Positions 16,590 to 55,786 of a stretch of 64,000 nucleotides of DNA are shown here, piece by piece. The stretch lies in assembly GCA_051294375.1 (NCBI GenBank), contig CM119267.1, positions 18,020,992-18,084,991 on the forward strand. The letters are read 5' to 3'. Both the position numbers and the translations under genes were made by a program. A model generated the notes under the pieces. The model saw nothing but the letters and a program-made list of their open reading frames with translations, was not told the origin of the DNA and searched no databases. Position 1 is the stretch's first letter; each line of letters begins with the position of its first letter. This DNA comes from Paraspadella gotoi (taxonomy: Eukaryota > Animalia > Chaetognatha).

Positions 16590-17900
16590 ATGACAGAATA
16601 CGAGAACTATAGTATTAAAGCCAAAAATTACGATGCGACTCGTGTGCCAGCCGGTTTAAAAACCATATTCTCACTCATCGAATCGACTGTTTCTGCCCGA
16701 GTTTTGGACGCCGGCGCCGGAACCGGAAATTATGCGTTTCCCGTCGCTGAACGCGGTGCACACGTTTCCGCTCTGGAGATCAATGAAGGAATGATTGAGC
16801 AGATGCAGGGGAAAAAAGAAGCTCTCGACAACCTCGAGGGAAAGGTTGATGTCGTTAAGCATTCCTTGTTGAAACTTCCGCTCCCGTTTGAAGATGATAC
16901 TTTTGATTTAATAATGCTTAATCAGGTAAAGATATTGATTAATTTAAACAAAAAGATGCAGCGTTTTATTATTTTTTTTCTAGAAGAAAACTTAATTATA
17001 GGTGGCTCATCATCTGGATGCTGAAGCACCATTCTCGAACTTGTCGAAACTCATAACCGAGTTCTATCGAATAATGAAACCTGGCGGTCGATTTTTTATG
17101 AGTACCGTTTCTAAAAAACAAGGAGAGGGATTTTGGCTAGCGCCTTTTCTTGAAAGGCTTAATTTGAGTGATCGCCTAGTCCCCAATAGGGTAGCCCCGG
17201 TTGAAACGGTGAGAAATAAATTTAAATTATTTTATTTTCATTAATAATAAATATAATTTGTTTGATTTAAGGTGTGCACCATGCTTTTTGACAATAAGTT
17301 CGTGGATGTTCAACAGATAGTAGACCACGAATTAAGTAAGTATTAAGATATAATAAACTGTGGCAGCACAGCTTAAAGCTGTCTCACTGCTGTCCGTCCT
17401 CAGCCTCGTCTCAATGGCTGAGCAGGCTAAATCTTCTCTTGTCAACCGTGCGTCCCGGGTTCAATCCCTTGGTATCTCGGTTCTGGCTTAAATGTGACGG
17501 AGCCGGTTTAAACATGCCAGTGACAGGAGGCGGTCTCTGAGGGTCCACAGCCCCTACGACAGTTTGTGAGATACCTCGAGCCCCGGGTTTCACGGTCAAT
17601 CCTCCCGTTGCCATAATATGCGTTGTCGTAGATATATAATGAATTATTTCATATTTAATTTTGAAAATTTCTTTATCAGTTTTTGGGGTTCAATATTTCA
17701 ACTTTACTAGTCTCTTTGACGACCGTTATCGTGCTGGGAACAGCATGTATGCCCGTTTCACTGAAGCCGAGTTAAAATCACTTATTGACTTGGTGCAATA
17801 CGAGATGCTCGAAGGCGATTTCATAAAAAATATTTATGAAGCGGAAAAAAAACGGAAAACGAATGGACATTCTGTTGTTATCATCGCAAATAAATTATAG
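16590..17900 (+). CDS. Class I SAM-dependent methyltransferase (Methyltransf_11/UbiE-like), copy 1, 4 exons
   Basis: Motif I VLDAGAGTG, post-I ALEINEGM, motif II LPFEDDTFDLIML, motif III FYRIMKPGGRF. Introns at ~16926-17001, 17208-17271 and 17336-17679. Confidence 0.85.
17358..17632 (+). mobile_element. tRNA-headed SINE-like element in intron 3 of methyltransferase copy 1
   Basis: GC-rich island in an AT-rich intron. Pol III A box TGGCTGAGCAGG (17415-17426) and B box GGTTCAATCCC (17458-17468), with a GTC anticodon-like loop between them. Similar AGATAT(AT)AAT flanks on both sides. Confidence 0.55.
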
Positions 17901-18026
17901 CGGGATTGCACTCTACGTTGTACGCACTGCGTTTTCTGTTGATTATTTCCAATTGGGTGATTCTTTTTTTTACTGTTGATTTATTGGTTGACCTTTTAAA
18001 TCTTTTACAATTTTTTTCTAGCCAAA

Positions 18027-19463
18027 ATGTCTCTTTATCAAGTTTATAATGACTATTTTAAAAAATCTAGTACTATGACGAAATTCGTGTGCCCGTTGGT
18101 CTTGGAACTGTTTTCTCTCTCATTGATGGCATAAATTGTCCGCGCGTACTTGACGCCGGGGCCGGCACAGGGAGCTATGCTTTTCCCGTTGCTCAACGGG
18201 GCGCGCACGTCACGGCGTTGGAAATTAATGAAGGTTTGGTGATCACGTGAATACATTTCTCCACAGCTTTATCTCAACCTTGGCAAAAAATGACGAAACA
18301 GACGGCCACTGACGGTCCAAAGCTTCGAAATTCAGTCGGTGAGATGCTCCGCGAAACCTCCATTACCATTAACTGATTAAGGTATGCGAGAGCGAATGGA
18401 GGATAAGAAACGAAAGATGGGCGACATTAAAGGAAAAGTGGACCTCTTGACGCTTTCATTGCTAGATCTGCCTCTTCCGTTTCAAAACAACGAGTTCGAT
18501 TTTGTTATGTTTCACCTAGTAAGCATTAATAATTTAATTAGACTTATTATTTGTTTTATAATTATTCAAGTTACCCCGCGTTTGAATTCTGTAATTAGGT
18601 GGCTCATCATTTGGATTCGTCGCCTCCTTACCCTAATTTGGTCAAGGTTCTAAGCGAGTTCCATCGCGTTCTCAAACACGGTGGCCGTTTTTCCATGCTA
18701 ACTTGTACGAAGGAACAGACCGAAGCGATTTGGATGACACCTTTTCTGGTCAAACTTGGTTTCCCTGACTTTCACGCCCACTCATCCATGGCACCAGTCG
18801 AAACGGTACAATCAAAGTACTATTCATTTGCGTGGTCTATAAATGACGATATTATTGCTATTATTTTTTTAGTTTTTTTTTGTATAATTGCCGTGGAGTC
18901 ATTAAGGGCTTAAAATCTTTAGTGGTTGCTGGAGGATCGCCACCACAATACTCCTCTTGTTGCGTCCACACCTTAAATGTTAAAATCACTTTGGAAACCT
19001 TGTCACGTTTATCTCGCTGCAGATTCGTACCTGCAGGGACAACGATAAGATATTTTTTATAACGATGATACATTTTTTATAGGTGCGTCATCACTTGTCA
19101 GAACTCGGTTTCCTGGATTTACGGGAAGAAGTCAACACCGAGACGGGTAACTTTCGTTCGGACATTTACATAAACTTAATTACTTAATAAAATGTTCTCT
19201 ACCGCTAACTTCTTTTTCCAGTGTTTGGTGAACGTTACTTTGACTTTACCTTTTACTTTACGCCCGCTGGAAGATCCAGTTACAGCATGTTCAGCCGCAT
19301 GAGCGACGAACAGGTTCAAGCATTCGTAGATCTTGTTCGCCGAGAGATGTTCGATGGAGATTTTGTTGAAACTATTGCCGCCGCCGAGCGTAAAAGGAAG
19401 AACATCGGAATGACCACTTTCCTTCTGGCTAGAAAAGAACTAAAATTGGAATCTGGCCATTGA
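18027..19463 (+). pseudogene. SAM-dependent methyltransferase copy 2 (tandem paralog) with an apparent 1-nt frameshift near codon 15
   Basis: Homologous to copy 1 (YDEIRVPVGL...RVLDAGAGTGSYAFPVAQRGAHVTALEINEG, LPFQNNEFDFV, FHRVLKHGGRF). The ATG frame (18027) stops at ~18135, and the homologous frame is preceded by TAG at 18068-18070. Could also be a sequencing error. Confidence 0.65.
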
Positions 19464-19838
19464 TTGTCTCTTAGATTTTTTGGGGGGGTATCATTATTTC
19501 GGTTTAAAGTCATGTTTTAATTACTTTATAATACATAAAAACCGCAAAAAAATCTTATTTTATTAGTTTTTGAGAGTTAGCAAGTAAGGTTGACGAGTGA
19601 CGAGAGCCGACAAGGGTTTCAGTCTAGAGGAAGTTGCTCTTGCCGATGACCGACGAGCCATATTTTTTATATATTTTTAGCTTCAGCTCGAAGTTTGTGC
19701 AAATTTAATTAAGGAAGTTTATTGAATAGTATAACGATAAGAGCTACAGCTGCTATTCGACAATTTCCTTTTTGATCTTCATAGTTATTGAAGTTACATA
19801 ATGTTTTAATTGTCGTTTGAGATTTAACAAACAGCTCT

Positions 19839-20093
19839 TAGAGAAAGCAAAGAATTTTGAAATTTTAACAACGATTTTTAATTAAAAGTTGGACATGTTT
19901 CTCTCTCTTTCTCTCTCTCTCTCTCTCACACTCTTCTTTTACACAAAATGTATTGTTGAATGTCATATGCTGATGAAGGCTTGAAGTAAACAAGCCGAAA
20001 CATGTCCAACTTTTAATTAAAAATCGTTGTTAAAATTTCAAAATTCTTTGCTTTCTCTAATAACAATAAACAACGAAAAGAAAGGATTATCGC
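19839..20093 (+). mobile_element. Short Penelope-like (PLE) insertion: inverted repeat + (CT)n + hammerhead, 13-bp TSD
   Basis: Perfect 64-bp inverted repeat 19838-19901/19997-20060. Direct repeat AACAAACAGCTCT at 19826-19838 and 20094-20106. Hammerhead core inside. Confidence 0.75.
19968..20010 (+). ncRNA. Minimal type I hammerhead ribozyme (PLE-type)
   Basis: CUGAUGA-A-[GGCUUG aaguaaa CAAGCC]-GAAAC-AUGUC: intact catalytic core, 6-bp stem II, palindromic ACAUGU stem III region, GUC cleavage triplet ending at 20006. Confidence 0.8.
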
Positions 20094-20630
20094 AACAAAC
20101 AGCTCTAAAATATATACTTTCTCTTTCTTTGCAATCCTAAATTGGTGATAAAATGTAAATTAATGTTTTTTTATTCTTAAACTTTGCATAGTTTTATAAT
20201 TAGCTCATTTTTTACTATGATTCTCCACCTTTTAGTAATTATGAATTAAAGAAATCATTATTACCACCAATTGTCGATATATAGGTCAATTATTATCCGG
20301 AATGGTTGCTTTTTGTTATTGCACCGAATAACTATTTCCTTCTTTCGCTCTCAAGCCGGCGCTAAAATCGCCCTTTGAAACTGTCCTTCATTATCGCTCT
20401 AAGAGAGGAATAAAAAGTCAAAAAGACCTCTATGATCATGTGGTCATTTGCCTTTTTACTAATTATTTCATTTTCGTAGTTAACCATTTCAATCACATGG
20501 CCAATCCCCTTGCCAGAAAAAACTCAAATATGTAAGTTTTTGGGGAAATCTTGCGAAAAAGAAAAAAAATCAGTTCTCCTTGTGACCTCTTTCGATCTGA
20601 TTACGACTCACACTTCCAAGACTCCCGATA

Positions 20631-41039: not shown

Positions 41040-42954
41040 ATGGAACTGGGCGGAAATGGCGTCGGCACCGAGAACCGATGGATCTTTGCCCAGGAACGCC
41101 TCGACGACGCCAGAAAACGACTCGCGGCGGCGGCGTCGGCGGCGACGTCGGGTGACGAGCGAGAGACGCGGCAGTCGCTCAGCGCCGCCGTTTTTATTCA
41201 GGTTCGCTGTGGGTGAAATCGATCCTGTTCGTTGCACGATTCGCTTTCACGGTAATGAATGTATCGGCAGGAGATGGGCGACAAGCTTCAGCTGAAACCC
41301 TTGGCCATCAACACCGCCATCGTATACATGCGTCGTTTTGCAATTTTCCACCCCGTTGCCGACGCCGTACTTCCTCCCCACGTCCAAGCCCGAGAGAGAT
41401 TAGTTCTTCGACACGTGAGTTTTTTTATGTCTACATACAATATATGTTTTATTGTCTCGGCTTTCATGTCGAGCAGTTGAGTTTCCGAGGTTTTTGTCCT
41501 TGGTCTTGGTACAAAACAAAAAAAAAACAAGATGTTATGTATCTGTTTCTGAGATTTCCAGATTTTGAGTTTTGTTGGGTCCAGAATTATCTAAAATGCC
41601 GGGGGGGGGGCAGCTCTTTTTGAGCTCTTTTCTTTATCTTACTTTCACTAACATCTTCACTTCTATCCCTAACAACTTATTTTTCCCTTTCACATTTTAT
41701 TCTTAATATTTAACTAAATTATTAATTTCTCTTTGTTATTACTAGTTTAGTATTAAGTTTTTCCATTTATTTTTCTGTTGTACATTGCTAAATGTAATTA
41801 TTTTCTCTGCCTCTGTTGCTTCTCTCTCTCTCTCTTAATTTTTTCACCTTTCAAGTTTCAACCAATCTTATCTTCTTCCCTGTCCTTACCTTCACCTGTC
41901 CTCACATCTGACCACTGTCCTTTCTAAATTCTTTGTTGGAATCTCCTCCTCTCTCTCTCTCACTCTCAAAGCTAATGTTAAAGAGAGAAAATTGTTGATT
42001 GTTAAAAATCGCAGAAGAAGACTCTTAATAAAGAGTTGAAACTTGTCCGACTTATATCCAATAATAAATCGTTGTTGACCTTAAAAACTGTTTTTCCTAA
42101 CTAAAATTATTTAAAATTATTTAAAAATTTGGAACGCTAAATTTTATTTTCTCACGCAGCGCTGCTTTTTTTTTAGTCTGGCAGCGGTCCCAATACACGA
42201 ATCGATTGAATCCTGCGACCAGCCTATCAAATTTTCTCTCTCGTCTTCCCCCCTCCCCCCCACCTTTTGTTGAAATCGGTTAATTTATCGTTAATAGTCG
42301 AGATTAAGAATTTCGGTTTCGAATTATGCTTGGAAAAAGATTTTTATATTATTTATAAACAATTAGTTAACATTTTGCATAGTTGACAACTATTAATCTC
42401 TCCGTTTCTTCAGACTCTGGCGGCCGCCTGCATATTTCTGTCTGCCAAAGTAGAAGAGCAGCCGCGAAAGCTGGACCACGTCGTCAGGACGGCAGCTTAT
42501 TTAAAACAAAGACTACATCTTCAGCAAAACACAGAGCTCTATTACCAAAAGACGCAAGTTAGTTCCGGGCTGTACCGGTTTATACTCGAATCTCTGATAT
42601 GCTTCTTAAACAAAGTACTTAGTTATAAACTAAAGAGAAATTTTTGAAAAAACAAAGGAACTTCTGACCGTGGAAAACGTCCTCCTCCAAGTTCTGGGGT
42701 TCGACATCGCCGTCGACCACGCCCACCCTTACGTCGTTAAACTATGCGTGCATAAAGTCCCGAAAGTTTTCGCCAATAAGGTAAATTTAAAAAATTGCCT
42801 TCAGGGGAAAAAAATGAGAATGTCTTCGGTAGTTCGATGTTGATATTCTCACTTCTATACTGAATCAGGAAAGAGGGATACCTAGTAACCAGATATTTTT
42901 TGGCCAGATTTTCTATTCTCCGACGTGAGCCGGTTTCTTTTTCGCAGCTATCAC

Positions 42955-52325: not shown

Positions 52326-54660
52326 GGGGTGAACTAGGGCAAATATTTTTTTTAAATAGGTATTAGACAATTTTTTGGTTTACTTGGTAGTTAACTGAAT
52401 AAAAGTAGGCAATTTTTAATTGAGGAAAGGATCTTTAAAACTAAGATATAACTGATAAACTTATGATCTAATTTGTTAAGATTTAAAAGGGAAATGTTAT
52501 CTTTAATAATTTGAAGCCACATAATATTAAATTAAATATTGTAATCTAATTGTATTCTATTGTAGTCTAACCTTGTATTGTATAGATGTTCCCTTTATTT
52601 CCAGAAGAAAACACTGACCTCCCCCTCCCAAAATGAGCTACAGATATAATAAGCAAATAATATTTTTAAAAGGTAATATATAAATAAAATATAAAAATAT
52701 AAGATAGTGAAAAAAGTAATTTTGCAAATTTTTATATAAAATTAAAAAAATAACAAAATAGTATAGACTAGTAACAAGGTACGCTACAATAGGATATTTT
52801 TTGGTATTAATTTTTAAACAATCTTTATCAAATATAAAACTTTAATTTGCTCAACATTGAAATTCAGTTTTAGCCCAAATATTTTTAATAAAAGATATAA
52901 TAATTTATAAAAAAAAATTAATAGCTAAGAATATGTTTGGTATTTGGTTTTTGGTAACAGGGGTTGGAGTCTATTATATAATTATTTTTAATTAAGATAA
53001 ACATTTTTCAGTATGTTCAAGAATGTCATTTTTTACTTTGTTAATAATAAAAAAATAGGAGAATTTTTTTTATTTGAAAATCATATCCATAGGATATTTA
53101 CTTTCCATATCGAGCTCGAATTTTTTAATATAATCAGCTAGGGAGGTATTGAGTAATCCATATCATATTCTGCAAAGAATTTTAATGAGCTTTGATATTC
53201 TAAATAAGATACAAAACAGTTTTGGGCGATTTGAGTCTTGTGTACATTTTTACATCATCTTTGATCAAGGTTTTAATCTTGTCAATCATATCAGGATACA
53301 ACTGAATACGTTACATTGCAAATATCTTTAAATGTATGCATCCTTATTGTTATTACTACTTTTTTTATTATCTGTTAATTTTTGTATTTATCAATGAATT
53401 AATCTTCTTTAATAATTTTATTGGTTCTGGGTCTTGTAGTAGCAAAGTAGTTTACATACTTATTGCTGATACTCATATTTCATGCCATCTGGGAAAAGTA
53501 ATTTTTGTGCTTAAAATATAATAATAAGAAATTGAAAATCTAGTTGATAACGAAATTAAAACAATAAAAGAAAATATATTGTTTTATTTATTTTTATATT
53601 TATATATTTTATATTTATATATTTTTATAAATATATAAATTTAGATATTTATTATTTATTATAATAAATGATATTATTATTTATATTATTTAATATAATA
53701 TTATTAATTTATTATTATTATTATTATTAATTATTATTATAATAAAGAAAAACATCGATTTGGGAAACGGTGCTAATTTTATTTAGACCATGCATTCAAA
53801 CCATTTAGCTGTTTCATTATTCAAGGCCAGAGAAATTGTGGTGAGGTAAAAAATTATTTACAAATAAGAGAAGGTGAGATGCATGGAAGCCAATCCTGGA
53901 CCACCTACATCCCGGACGAAGAACAAGAGGGGGATGAGGGATTAATCCCTTTTTGGTTGAAAGTTTCTCTCTCTCTCTCTCTTTCTCTCTCTCTGAGTCT
54001 CCTCCTCTTCCTCTCACCTTCTCTTATTTGTAAATAATTTTTTACCTCACCACAATTTCTCTGGCCTTGAATAATGAACCAGCTAAATGGTTTGAATGCA
54101 TGGTCTAAATAAAATTAGCACTGTTTCCCAAATCGATGTTTTTCTTTATCAAACTACTCGGTGCATGAGAGAGACTTAACAATCTATTATTATAATAATA
54201 ATTATTATTATAATAAATGATATTATTATTTATATTATTTAATATAATATTATTAATTTATTATTATTATTAATTATTATTATAATAATAATATTAATAA
54301 TTATTAATATATAATTATAATTATATTAAATATATTATAATATATTATATAATATATTATATTAAATAATAATAATATATAATAATAATTAATATATAAT
54401 TATTATTATTATAATTAATTAATAATATAATAATAAATAATTAATATTATTAATAAATTATTATATTATTTAATATAATATATATTCAATAAATAATATA
54501 TTATTATTATATTATATATTTATATATTTTTATATTTATAAGAAAAATATTTTCATTCAGAAATTGCTTATCTTAATTAAGAAAAATTATTTCTTTACCT
54601 AGGCAATTTCAATAACACTTTGCTCAGTTAATCAGGCAAAATATTACTTAAGTTCACCCC
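52326..54660. mobile_element. Non-autonomous TIR element, Kolobok-like termini, with nested Penelope-like insert
   Basis: ttaa|GGGGTGAACT ... AGTTCACCCC|ttac. Perfect 13-bp inverted match including flanks (52323-52335 / 54651-54663), with weak similarity continuing inward. Confidence 0.5.
53742..54149 (+). mobile_element. Penelope-like fold-back fragment
   Basis: 138-bp inverted repeat 53742-53879/54012-54149 (2 mismatches). Decayed GIY-YIG C-terminal-like peptides (ID/WETVLIL, KAREIV, DAWKPIL), a degenerate hammerhead at 53913-53967 and a (CT)n tract in the spacer. Confidence 0.65.
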
Positions 54661-55786
54661 TTACAAAAAATATCATAAACATATTTTACATAAGTTTTTC
54701 AGTTTTTTCCGGCGAATCCAAAACAGTTCTTAAAATTAAAAAAAAAATGTTTTGAAATTTTATGATTTTATAAGAATAATACTATAAAAAAATTTAATTA
54801 ATAATACTGTTATACAAAATTTATTTGAAAAGGGACTTAATTATTTTTTATTACATATACAAACGCAGCAAAAAAAACCCTTGTTCCATTAGCCATAGCC
54901 GATGAAATTTAAATGCTAATGTATACAGCGTTAAAATAATCTATCATGACCATAGATTATGGTATTAAAATATTTTTTTGGCAAAAATGCTTTCTTCTGA
55001 GGGTACTCGTCTAATTAAAAATATTATATTACTATATAGAGCAAAAAATATTTTTTTAAAATTCTAAAATTTTTTGATGGATTCTGATAGAGCATAAAAA
55101 GTTAAACAAGAAATATAATTACAGCTTTTAAAAATTCTTACGTTTTCTATGTGAAAATATAAAAAAACTGATAAAATCATCGAAAGATGACGATGATGAT
55201 GATTTTTTACAGTTTTTCTTATTTTTGACACACTTATCGTAAAAATATTTAAAAAAGAATCATACTTTGTGTAGACAACTTTTTATGAGCTATCTGAATC
55301 TGGTCTTAAAATTTAAAAATTCAAAAAAAAATTTTTGGCCTTTCCTATCTATAAATAAATATTAAAAAATTAATTACTAGGGTATAGAGCCATATTAGAA
55401 ATTTTTTGTCCATTGAAAGTATTCTTAAAAATGTCTAAATATTCGTTTGAGCATGTACTCGCTCTAAATTTTTGACTCACCCCATTGAGTGCGGCTACCC
55501 CTAGTTCCATCGCTCAATCTTTTCATCATTCTACCCTACTGATTAGTTTATTTTTTGACAATTAAATTTTTTTTTTTTTTCAGAAACTGTAACTTTAATT
55601 TTCCTCGGTACTTTATTATTTTTTTTAATTGACGATCGCAAAATATATTTTTTCTTTGTTTATAAATTAATTTTCTTTTTTCAAATTTTATTTTTTTTAG
55701 TATCAAAATTTGTCGTCAATCCAGATTTTTCTCATGCGATTGCGACGATCCTTATGCTTTTAGGATTTTTTTATTTAGATTTTACC

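What the first reader, a model, noticed from the sequence alone, without database searches (positions are those of the whole stretch)
19826..20106. Intact minimal hammerhead ribozyme inside a young ~255-bp fold-back retro-element with a 13-bp TSD
Seen: CTGATGA-A-GGCTTG/CAAGCC-GAAACATGTC (19970-20006), a perfect 64-bp inverted repeat (19838-19901 vs 19997-20060), a (CT)n tract and flanking AACAAACAGCTCT direct repeats. Known: Penelope-like elements carry minimal type I hammerheads with a palindromic stem III (here ACAUGU) that can cleave as dimers, and they often insert as inverted arrangements. Inference: this is a tiny non-coding, ribozyme-bearing PLE derivative that inserted recently (arms identical). 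The left arm is complementary to the GAAAC strand and cleavage site, so a read-through transcript would fold into a 64-bp dsRNA that switches the ribozyme off or feeds endo-siRNA production.
Basis: partly seen in the sequence, partly recalled or inferred. Interest (0 to 1): 0.8.

Follow-up and report, generated by a model that had tools for sequence, protein, structure and literature searches.

The report
Fold-back stub of Penelope retrotransposon
This 255-base hairpin-shaped insertion with a hammerhead-ribozyme motif is real and belongs to a repeat family that is abundant in this genome, and it is likely an ordinary truncated insertion of a Penelope-type jumping gene whose mirror-image arm would be a by-product of landing rather than a ribozyme off-switch.

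Summary
In detail: a hammerhead core (19970-20006), perfect inverted arms, a (CT)n tract and a 13-bp direct repeat. Inverted arm + one-sided 30-40-nt tail + short TSD is the published layout of endonuclease-bearing Penelope-like element (PLE) insertions (PMC3846280, PMC8557442). In 8 laid sequencing runs the body is highly repeated, while the arm-(CT)n junction sits near single-locus depth, so the fold-back was likely made at this site. The same hammerhead core in other genomes often has the same anatomy (11 of 20 loci, against 7 of 127 controls). No empty site was seen, so 'recent' means only under about 5% arm divergence. No PLE protein was found beside any copy, so the master element is inferred. 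The arm would block the ribozyme in a read-through RNA, but transcription is not shown, and siRNAs from inverted Penelope copies are already published. The scan has reported such stubs in many other genomes (124 notes matched). One small new lead: a tail motif, ACAACG, at the same offset in other hosts. Verdict: new member of a known kind, low interest.

The parts
19826..19838 (.). Left copy of the 13-bp target-site duplication (TSD inferred; empty site not seen)
   Evidence: last base overlaps the arm by 1 nt
19839..19901 (-). Inverted, 5'-truncated, tail-less second copy (left arm), reverse complement of 19997-20059; ends inside the catalytic core
   Evidence: record joining arm and (CT)n at depth 20.7 (X8) and 19.4 (X2, X4)
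19902..19941 (+). (CT)n / pyrimidine tract at the inner junction; whether it is part of the family body is unresolved
   Evidence: skipped by read laying; a longer (TC) run in X8
19942..19967 (+). Repeated body upstream of the ribozyme motif
   Evidence: high summed depth from about 19942
19968..20008 (+). Type I hammerhead motif: 2-bp stem I, core 19970-19976, unpaired A 19977, 6-bp stem II 19978-19996, GAAA 19997-20000, palindromic stem III 20000-20005, predicted cut after C20006
   Evidence: matches the variant described for D. virilis Penelope in PMC4209133
19997..20059 (+). Right arm: 3' part of the ribozyme motif and the body up to the tail-less end (+53 from the cut site)
   Evidence: many other records stop at 20060
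20060..20093 (+). One-sided 34-nt tail, 71% A+C, with ACAACG at 20070-20075; 3' end at +87 from the cut site
   Evidence: predicted hairpin 20042-20088 with the tail-less end in its AC-rich loop, z = -2.1; other copies stop at 20094
20094..20106 (.). Right copy of the 13-bp target-site duplication
   Evidence: repeat depth falls to flank level after about 20097

Best explanation
The element is a repeated hammerhead-bearing sequence flanked by a 13-bp duplication, and it is likely the 5'-truncated end (pseudo-LTR plus tail) of an endonuclease-bearing Penelope-like retrotransposon whose inverted arm would have been made during this one insertion. Shown: the anatomy, the repeated body, the near-single-locus arm junction, and two recurring 3' ends. 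Inferred mechanism: the element's endonuclease made a 13-nt staggered cut in AT-rich intergenic DNA. Reverse transcription started from both cut strands at two internal sites on the element RNA, +87 (tailed) and +53 (tail-less) from the ribozyme cut site. One copy ran about 190 nt, to the (CT)n tract; the other stopped after 63 nt. The two were joined head to head, possibly through a TTTC microhomology. The ribozyme is a passenger. In the master element it would need a partner copy (palindromic stem III, 2-bp stem I); at this locus any read-through RNA is predicted to bury the cut site in a 63-bp duplex, so it is likely silent here.
For: Layout equals the published PLE insertion: adjacent inverted 5'-truncated copy, 30-40-bp tail at one end, 8-10-bp TSD (PMC3846280 passages; PMC8557442 passages). 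Ribozyme type equals the D. virilis Penelope variant: 2-bp helix I, 6-bp helix II with a 5' bulged base, palindromic helix III (PMC4209133 part 2). Body depth is about 100-2,000 times the flanks in 6 of 8 runs and about 10-45 times in X2/X4 (summed contig depth, not copy number). The arm-(CT)n record is at depth 19-21 in 3 of 8 runs (X2, X4, X8). Other copies stop at 20060 or 20094, and a 500-nt record at depth 138.5 (X8) runs on past 20094, as a longer master would. The window differs from the run majority at 20012, 20033, 20036 and 20053, and both arms carry these letters, so both came from one source copy. In 46 metagenome loci with the same core (36 distinct): upstream inverted arm in 11 of 20 eligible loci against 7 of 127 control anchors, Fisher p 3e-7; exact 12-13-bp TSD plus a one-sided 35-42-nt tail in 4 of 13 arm-bearing loci. 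In the anole PLE, reverse transcription starts internally, 85-92 nt after the ribozyme cut site, and does not need ribozyme cleavage (PMC11167929).
Against: No reverse transcriptase or GIY-YIG domain was found beside any copy: 0 of 63 and 0 of 72 ORFs from the related loci, 0 of 18 window ORFs scanned out of 38 listed. No genome is held, so the master element is unseen. The empty site was not seen, so the TSD is inferred. Depth falls towards the 3' end instead of peaking there, which a simple 5'-truncation series does not predict; divergence filtering and tail-less copies may explain it. The arm-(CT)n record has only 24 letters on the (CT)n side. The twin-priming step is not shown; PMC3846280 proposes self-priming on an antisense template instead. 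The related loci were picked by a pattern taken from the window, and many look like related families, so they are not independent.
Confidence: 0.7

Rival explanations
1. The roughly 190-nt body is itself a complete non-autonomous unit (retrozyme- or SINE-like PLE derivative), transcribed on its own and moved in trans by PLE proteins; the inverted arm is still made on insertion.
For: No PLE ORF seen; depth peaks on the ribozyme and just upstream of it; one record in X1 joins 20094 back to 19971, a head-to-tail junction; animal retrozymes are reported as non-autonomous pLTR derivatives (bioRxiv 10.64898/2026.07.22.740005); a weak second match at 41942-42076 also begins with a (CT)n tract.
Against: Metazoan retrozymes are tandem arrays with canonical type I ribozymes (PMC7229834 passages); this copy is single, with a weak-stem variant. 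A multi-copy sequence continues past the tail. The tandem junction is one record in 1 of 8 runs. The second window match is not significant without the (CT)n tract or with the RNA model (7.6 bits, E 7.3).
Confidence: 0.18
2. One reading: the whole fold-back is a young, self-contained element whose left arm is a built-in antisense switch or siRNA source for the ribozyme.
For: With the arm, all 10 nt of GAAACAUGUC are predicted paired (unpaired probability 0.0, against 0.62-0.89 without it); arm duplex -90.4 against -6.0 kcal/mol for the stem III dimer; the element lies about 380 nt downstream of the predicted stop of a same-strand methyltransferase-like gene.
Against: The arm junction is near single-locus depth; arms of many lengths and inner ends occur at unrelated loci; the layout is the usual PLE insertion product; no empty allele was listed in 8 runs; selection on the arm is not shown.
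Confidence: 0.05
3. A plain body-plus-tail copy inserted first; the left arm came later by a local DNA template switch or repair event.
For: The arms are identical although the copy differs from the family majority at several sites, which also fits a later local duplication.
Against: The arm starts exactly at the TSD and at the family's tail-less end (20059/20060); the same one-sided-tail geometry inside an exact TSD recurs in 4 of 13 unrelated arm-bearing loci, with the tail on either copy.
Confidence: 0.05
4. Assembly artefact (hairpin chimera) or chance motif.
For: Perfect inverted repeats can come from library or assembly artefacts; no listed record spans the whole element; Rfam score is far below threshold.
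Against: Flank-to-arm continuity is seen in all 8 runs (13-54 letters into the arm), tail-to-flank continuity in 5 of 8, and the arm-(CT)n join in 3 of 8, across 3 studies; stems I and II covary in related motifs.
Confidence: 0.02

Closest known systems
Insertion units of endonuclease-bearing Penelope-like elements (Pen2a_Av of Adineta vaga, PMC3846280; general scheme in PMC8557442 Fig. 2 legend)
   Same: Adjacent inverted 5'-truncated copy, head to head; 30-40-bp tail at one end only (34 nt here, 31 bp in Pen2a); short TSD; hammerhead motif in the terminal repeat.
   Different: No ORF and no second direct pLTR here: only the terminal ~190 nt plus a 63-nt arm. TSD 13 bp against 8-10 bp. Clade and master element not identified.
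Hammerhead variant of Drosophila virilis Penelope and similar motifs in flies, rotifers, shrimps and mosquitoes (PMC4209133)
   Same: Type I; 2-bp helix I; 6-bp helix II with an unpaired base at its 5' end; small palindromic helix III that implies a dimer.
   Different: No bulge in the middle of helix II; no AG splice acceptor next to helix I (none in 19902-19969), whereas the D. virilis intron ends there. Cleavage untested here; it was low even in engineered forms in that paper.
Poseidon element PAc of the green anole (PMC11167929)
   Same: 3' end 87 nt after the predicted cut site (85-92 nt in PAc, from +111-118 minus +26); two 3' ends separated by the tail; an AC-rich stem-loop near the ends; AT-rich target.
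   Different: Here the tail-less end (+53) falls in the AC-rich loop and the tailed end lies 3' of the stem; the text read does not give the second PAc site, so the two sites cannot be matched one to one. No protein or assay here.
Metazoan non-LTR retrozymes (PMC7229834; bioRxiv 10.64898/2026.07.22.740005)
   Same: Short, non-coding, type I hammerhead, high copy number, PLE-related.
   Different: Retrozymes are tandem arrays of 150-450-bp units with mostly canonical ribozymes that release circular RNA; this is a single copy with an inverted arm, tail and TSD.

Membership tests
PLE-type type I hammerhead motif | Catalytic core CUGANGA...GAAA with an NUH cut site | tested here: met
   19970-20006, GUC at 20004-20006
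PLE-type type I hammerhead motif | Stem II with G10.1-C11.1 and an unpaired base before it | tested here: met
   6 bp, 7-nt loop, extra A 19977
PLE-type type I hammerhead motif | Small palindromic stem III | tested here: met
   ACAUGU self-duplex, -6.0 kcal/mol
PLE-type type I hammerhead motif | Stem I closing the 5' and 3' ends | tested here: inconclusive
   2 contiguous pairs only; 26 of 35 related motifs have 3 or more; 2 bp is reported for D. virilis Penelope; closing it costs 3.1 kcal/mol in a monomer model
PLE-type type I hammerhead motif | Self-cleavage (as a dimer) | not testable with these tools
   Needs an assay; unconstrained cofolding of two copies did not give the active dimer
Rfam hammerhead families | Score at or above the gathering threshold | tested here: not met
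   RF00008 14.9 bits against 48.5; nothing at threshold in the window
Endonuclease-bearing Penelope-like element insertion | Adjacent inverted 5'-truncated copy, head to head | tested here: met
   19839-19901 against 19997-20059
Endonuclease-bearing Penelope-like element insertion | 30-40-bp tail at one end only | tested here: met
   34 nt, 20060-20093; other copies end at 20060 or 20094
Endonuclease-bearing Penelope-like element insertion | Short target-site duplication | tested here: inconclusive
   Exact 13-bp repeat at the family boundary, but no empty site was listed in 8 runs
Endonuclease-bearing Penelope-like element insertion | Dispersed, repeated family | tested here: met
   Summed depth far above flanks and many distinct loose ends in 8 of 8 runs
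Endonuclease-bearing Penelope-like element insertion | Linkage to an RT + GIY-YIG ORF in a master copy | tested here: inconclusive
   None in 135 ORFs from related loci or 18 window ORFs; no genome held, so masters could not be searched
Metazoan non-LTR retrozyme | Tandem units, each with a ribozyme | tested here: not met
   Single motif at this locus; one head-to-tail junction elsewhere in run X1
Metazoan non-LTR retrozyme | Unit-length linear and circular RNA | not testable with these tools
   Only contigs could be laid
MITE / fold-back DNA transposon | Terminal inverted repeats reach both ends and the whole unit is repeated | tested here: not met
   34-nt asymmetry at the right end; inner junction near single-locus depth

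The most novel reading that the evidence does not exclude
The tail carries a conserved cis signal for Penelope priming. ACAACG, about 10 nt beyond the tail-less end and on an AC-rich hairpin loop, sets where the reverse transcriptase starts, in hosts whose elements share little else than the ribozyme core. Two primings around this signal would make every fold-back stub and, as a side effect, an antisense arm that silences the stub's ribozyme. Basis: motif at tail offset 11 in the window and at offsets 5-12 in 7 of 13 arm-bearing loci, against 41 of 4,020 background windows. The motif was picked by eye after seeing these sequences, and the loci are not independent. Two paper searches (listings only) and one scan look-up did not show it.
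Probability: 0.25. Interest if true: 0.45.

Novelty: new member of a known kind. Interest (0 to 1): 0.2.

Why it matters
As it stands this is one more stub of a known retrotransposon class and matters little. Its use is as a clean record of a poorly understood insertion mechanism: two 3' ends 34 nt apart, a 13-nt stagger, and an inner junction. If the tail motif proves to be the priming signal, it would give a direct mutational test in the existing in vitro Penelope system (PMC11167929) and a way to find element ends in new genomes. The regulatory reading (off-switch, siRNA) would matter only if read-through RNA or small RNAs were shown at this locus, and the principle is already published for Drosophila Penelope.

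Tried and rejected
Rfam scans gave no supported hammerhead; the snoZ30 and snoU82P hits are far below threshold and were rejected. A type III reading of the motif was rejected by eye: the bases flanking its stem I would be A and G. A covariance model from 35 related motifs scores the window motif at 41.2 bits, E 8e-10, next best 9.8; this is circular, because those motifs were found with a pattern taken from the window, so it is not counted as support. Only stems I and outer II, which the pattern did not fix, are informative (88.9% of cells paired, 0 of 500 shuffles as high). No whole genome is held, and the metagenome records cannot be searched whole. The core pattern had 0 matches in viral contigs and 0 in genome contigs. 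No PLE protein: Pfam on 63 and 72 ORFs, and a scan with recalled RT/endonuclease motifs, were blank. Right-flank cover was missing at 20116-20187 in X5, X8 and X9, and the (CT)n tract was skipped in all runs; neither is used as evidence. The apparent stop of related arms at the ribozyme's 5' edge was an artefact of my query boundary and was dropped. A second copy at 41942-42076 (68%, E 1e-4 with the (CT)n tract) is not significant without the tract. Lunse et al. (PMC5785218) is not held and is known only through a review. The readable supplements of PMC11167929 held none of my terms; its figures and GenBank file, and the supplements of the bioRxiv preprint, were not seen and may bear on the tail sites and the motif.

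Full report
1. Observation. An exact 13-bp direct repeat lies at 19826-19838 and 20094-20106, and 64-nt arms at 19838-19901 and 19997-20060 are fully complementary. The 13-mer is the only non-low-complexity repeat of that length and spacing in the window. One arm base is shared with the repeat, so the element runs 19839-20093 with a 63-nt arm, and a 34-nt segment (20060-20093) is present at the right end only. The hammerhead motif has an intact core, an unpaired A, a 6-bp stem II and the palindrome ACAUGU as stem III, with the predicted cut after C20006. Stem I has two pairs. Rfam gives no supported match.

2. Setting. The window is eukaryotic; an animal is inferred from introns and from a RING/B-box ORF followed by an NHL-repeat ORF. 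No genome is held. By my reading of the sequence, the element lies between a methyltransferase-like gene that stops near 19460 and an ORF that starts near 20630, both on the + strand. No reverse transcriptase was found in 18 of the 38 long window ORFs that I scanned.

3. Family in this organism. Nine runs from three studies hold the stretch; I laid eight. They come from seven listed samples, probably six data sets, as X2 and X4 give the same contigs. Summed contig depth over the ribozyme is 206,901 (X1) and 276,299 (X6) against about 100 and 210-260 on the flanks at 85% likeness. At 90% likeness the peaks are 2,271-58,646 against 12-36 in X7, X8, X9 and X5. X2 and X4 show only about 1,100-1,300 against 28-128. 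These are not copy numbers, but the body is clearly a large family. At 85% many records fit only 19969-20007, so other families share the core. Depth returns to flank level just after 20094, which is the TSD boundary. Other copies stop at 20060 or 20094, the two ends seen here, and one 500-nt record at depth 138.5 runs on beyond 20094. One X1 record joins 20094 back to 19971. The record that joins the left arm to the (CT)n tract has depth 19-21 in X2, X4 and X8, near single-locus level, with 24 letters on the (CT)n side. The window copy differs from the run majority at about six places in 20007-20093, and both arms share those that fall inside the arm. Together these say that a repeated body was inserted here and that the fold-back is local.

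4. Age. Flank contigs run into the left arm in 8 of 8 runs, and tail contigs run into the right flank in 5 of 8. No empty-site joint was listed, although contigs cannot prove absence. The flanks differ between samples, and X8 shows a longer (TC) run. Zero differences in 63 bp allow up to 4.6% divergence. The insertion is young on a phylogenetic scale but seems common or fixed in these samples.

5. Relatives elsewhere. The core pattern found 46 metagenome loci, 36 distinct after dropping 10 redundant ones; their hosts were not identified, and many look related. Stem I, which the pattern did not fix, is paired in 121 of 140 cells against 75 for shuffled partners, with changes on both sides at all four pairs. 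An upstream inverted arm was found in 13 of 35 testable loci. In a fixed test it was 11 of 20, against 5 of 28 in the mirror direction and 7 of 127 control anchors. Four of the 13 have an exact 12-13-bp TSD and a 35-42-nt tail on one copy only, left or right. So the window's anatomy is generic for this ribozyme type. Against the reading: none of 135 ORFs from these loci matched a reverse transcriptase or GIY-YIG model, so the link to PLE proteins rests on the literature.

6. Comparison with print. PMC3846280 (passages) describes the typical Penelope insert: adjacent inverted pLTR, 31-bp tail on one copy, 8-10-bp TSD, and pLTRs sufficient for integration in trans. PMC8557442 (passages) gives the same scheme for all clades. 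PMC4209133 (parts 1-2 of 4) describes the variant with 2-bp helix I and palindromic helix III in D. virilis Penelope, opposite-strand motif pairs 100-700 bp apart, and low cleavage even in dimers. PMC11167929 (parts 1-2 of 4) shows two internal priming sites that define the tail, and that ribozyme cleavage is not needed for insertion in vitro. PMC3681739 (passages) reports siRNAs that match the inverted regions of rearranged Penelope copies. PMC6765202, PMC8969392 and PMC7229834 were read as passages, and the 2026 retrozyme preprint as part 1 of 5 plus passages. The scan itself lists 124 notes with these words in at least 32 genomes, none near this place or with this sequence. Those notes gave me the two-priming wording and the lead to PMC3846280; they are not evidence.

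7. Mechanism. Shown: anatomy, repetition, two 3' ends, local junction. Inferred: a staggered endonuclease cut, two reverse transcripts primed at +87 and +53, early termination, and head-to-head joining. Self-priming on an antisense RNA (PMC3846280) is an alternative for the joining step. The predicted tail hairpin is modest (z = -2.1, 9 of 200 shuffles as good). The ribozyme needs a partner for stem III (-6.0 kcal/mol), and cofolding did not give the active dimer.

8. What may be new. ACAACG lies at tail offset 11 in the window and at offsets 5-12 in 7 of 13 arm-bearing loci, against 1% of background windows. It was chosen after the fact and the loci are not independent. Listings from two paper searches did not show it. 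It is a lead for the priming signal.

9. Verdict. Real feature, new member of a known kind. Confidence 0.7 in the truncated-PLE reading and about 0.9 that PLE-type machinery made it. Interest 0.2.

Noticed in passing
window 17345-17640 (+): Insert of about 300 bp, apparently in an intron of the first methyltransferase-like gene, with tRNA-like promoter boxes (box B at 17458; labels recalled) followed by a twister-like stretch at 17505-17576 (Rfam twister-P1, 20.8 bits, gathering 67.2, E 0.055). It resembles the tRNA-head plus twister repeats noted earlier in this genome; possibly a solo terminal repeat.
   Followed up: partly
window 41942-42076 (+): Weak look-alike of the element: (CT)n tract, decayed core, similar downstream bases (68%). 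Not significant without the tract or by the RNA model.
   Followed up: partly
window 53573-54346 and 55041-55339: Two AT-rich inverted repeats; the first has 145-nt arms, 97% complementary. Possibly MITE-like or other fold-back insertions.
   Followed up: no
window 16590-19460 (+): Two tandem SAM-dependent methyltransferase-like genes; Pfam tested on the first only, the second read by eye and seemingly disrupted near its start.
   Followed up: no
window 19902-19969 (+): A pyrimidine-rich, AG-free stretch of 68 nt directly upstream of the ribozyme core; D. virilis Penelope has an intron that ends at helix I. No acceptor AG is present here.
   Followed up: no
runs X2 and X4 on window 19400-20600: Left-flank contig depth 128 against right-flank 28, and far lower repeat enrichment than in the other runs. 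Unexplained.
   Followed up: no
L003, L005, L008, L039, about +44 to +318 from the cut site: Inverted repeat downstream of the ribozyme rather than upstream; not examined.
   Followed up: no
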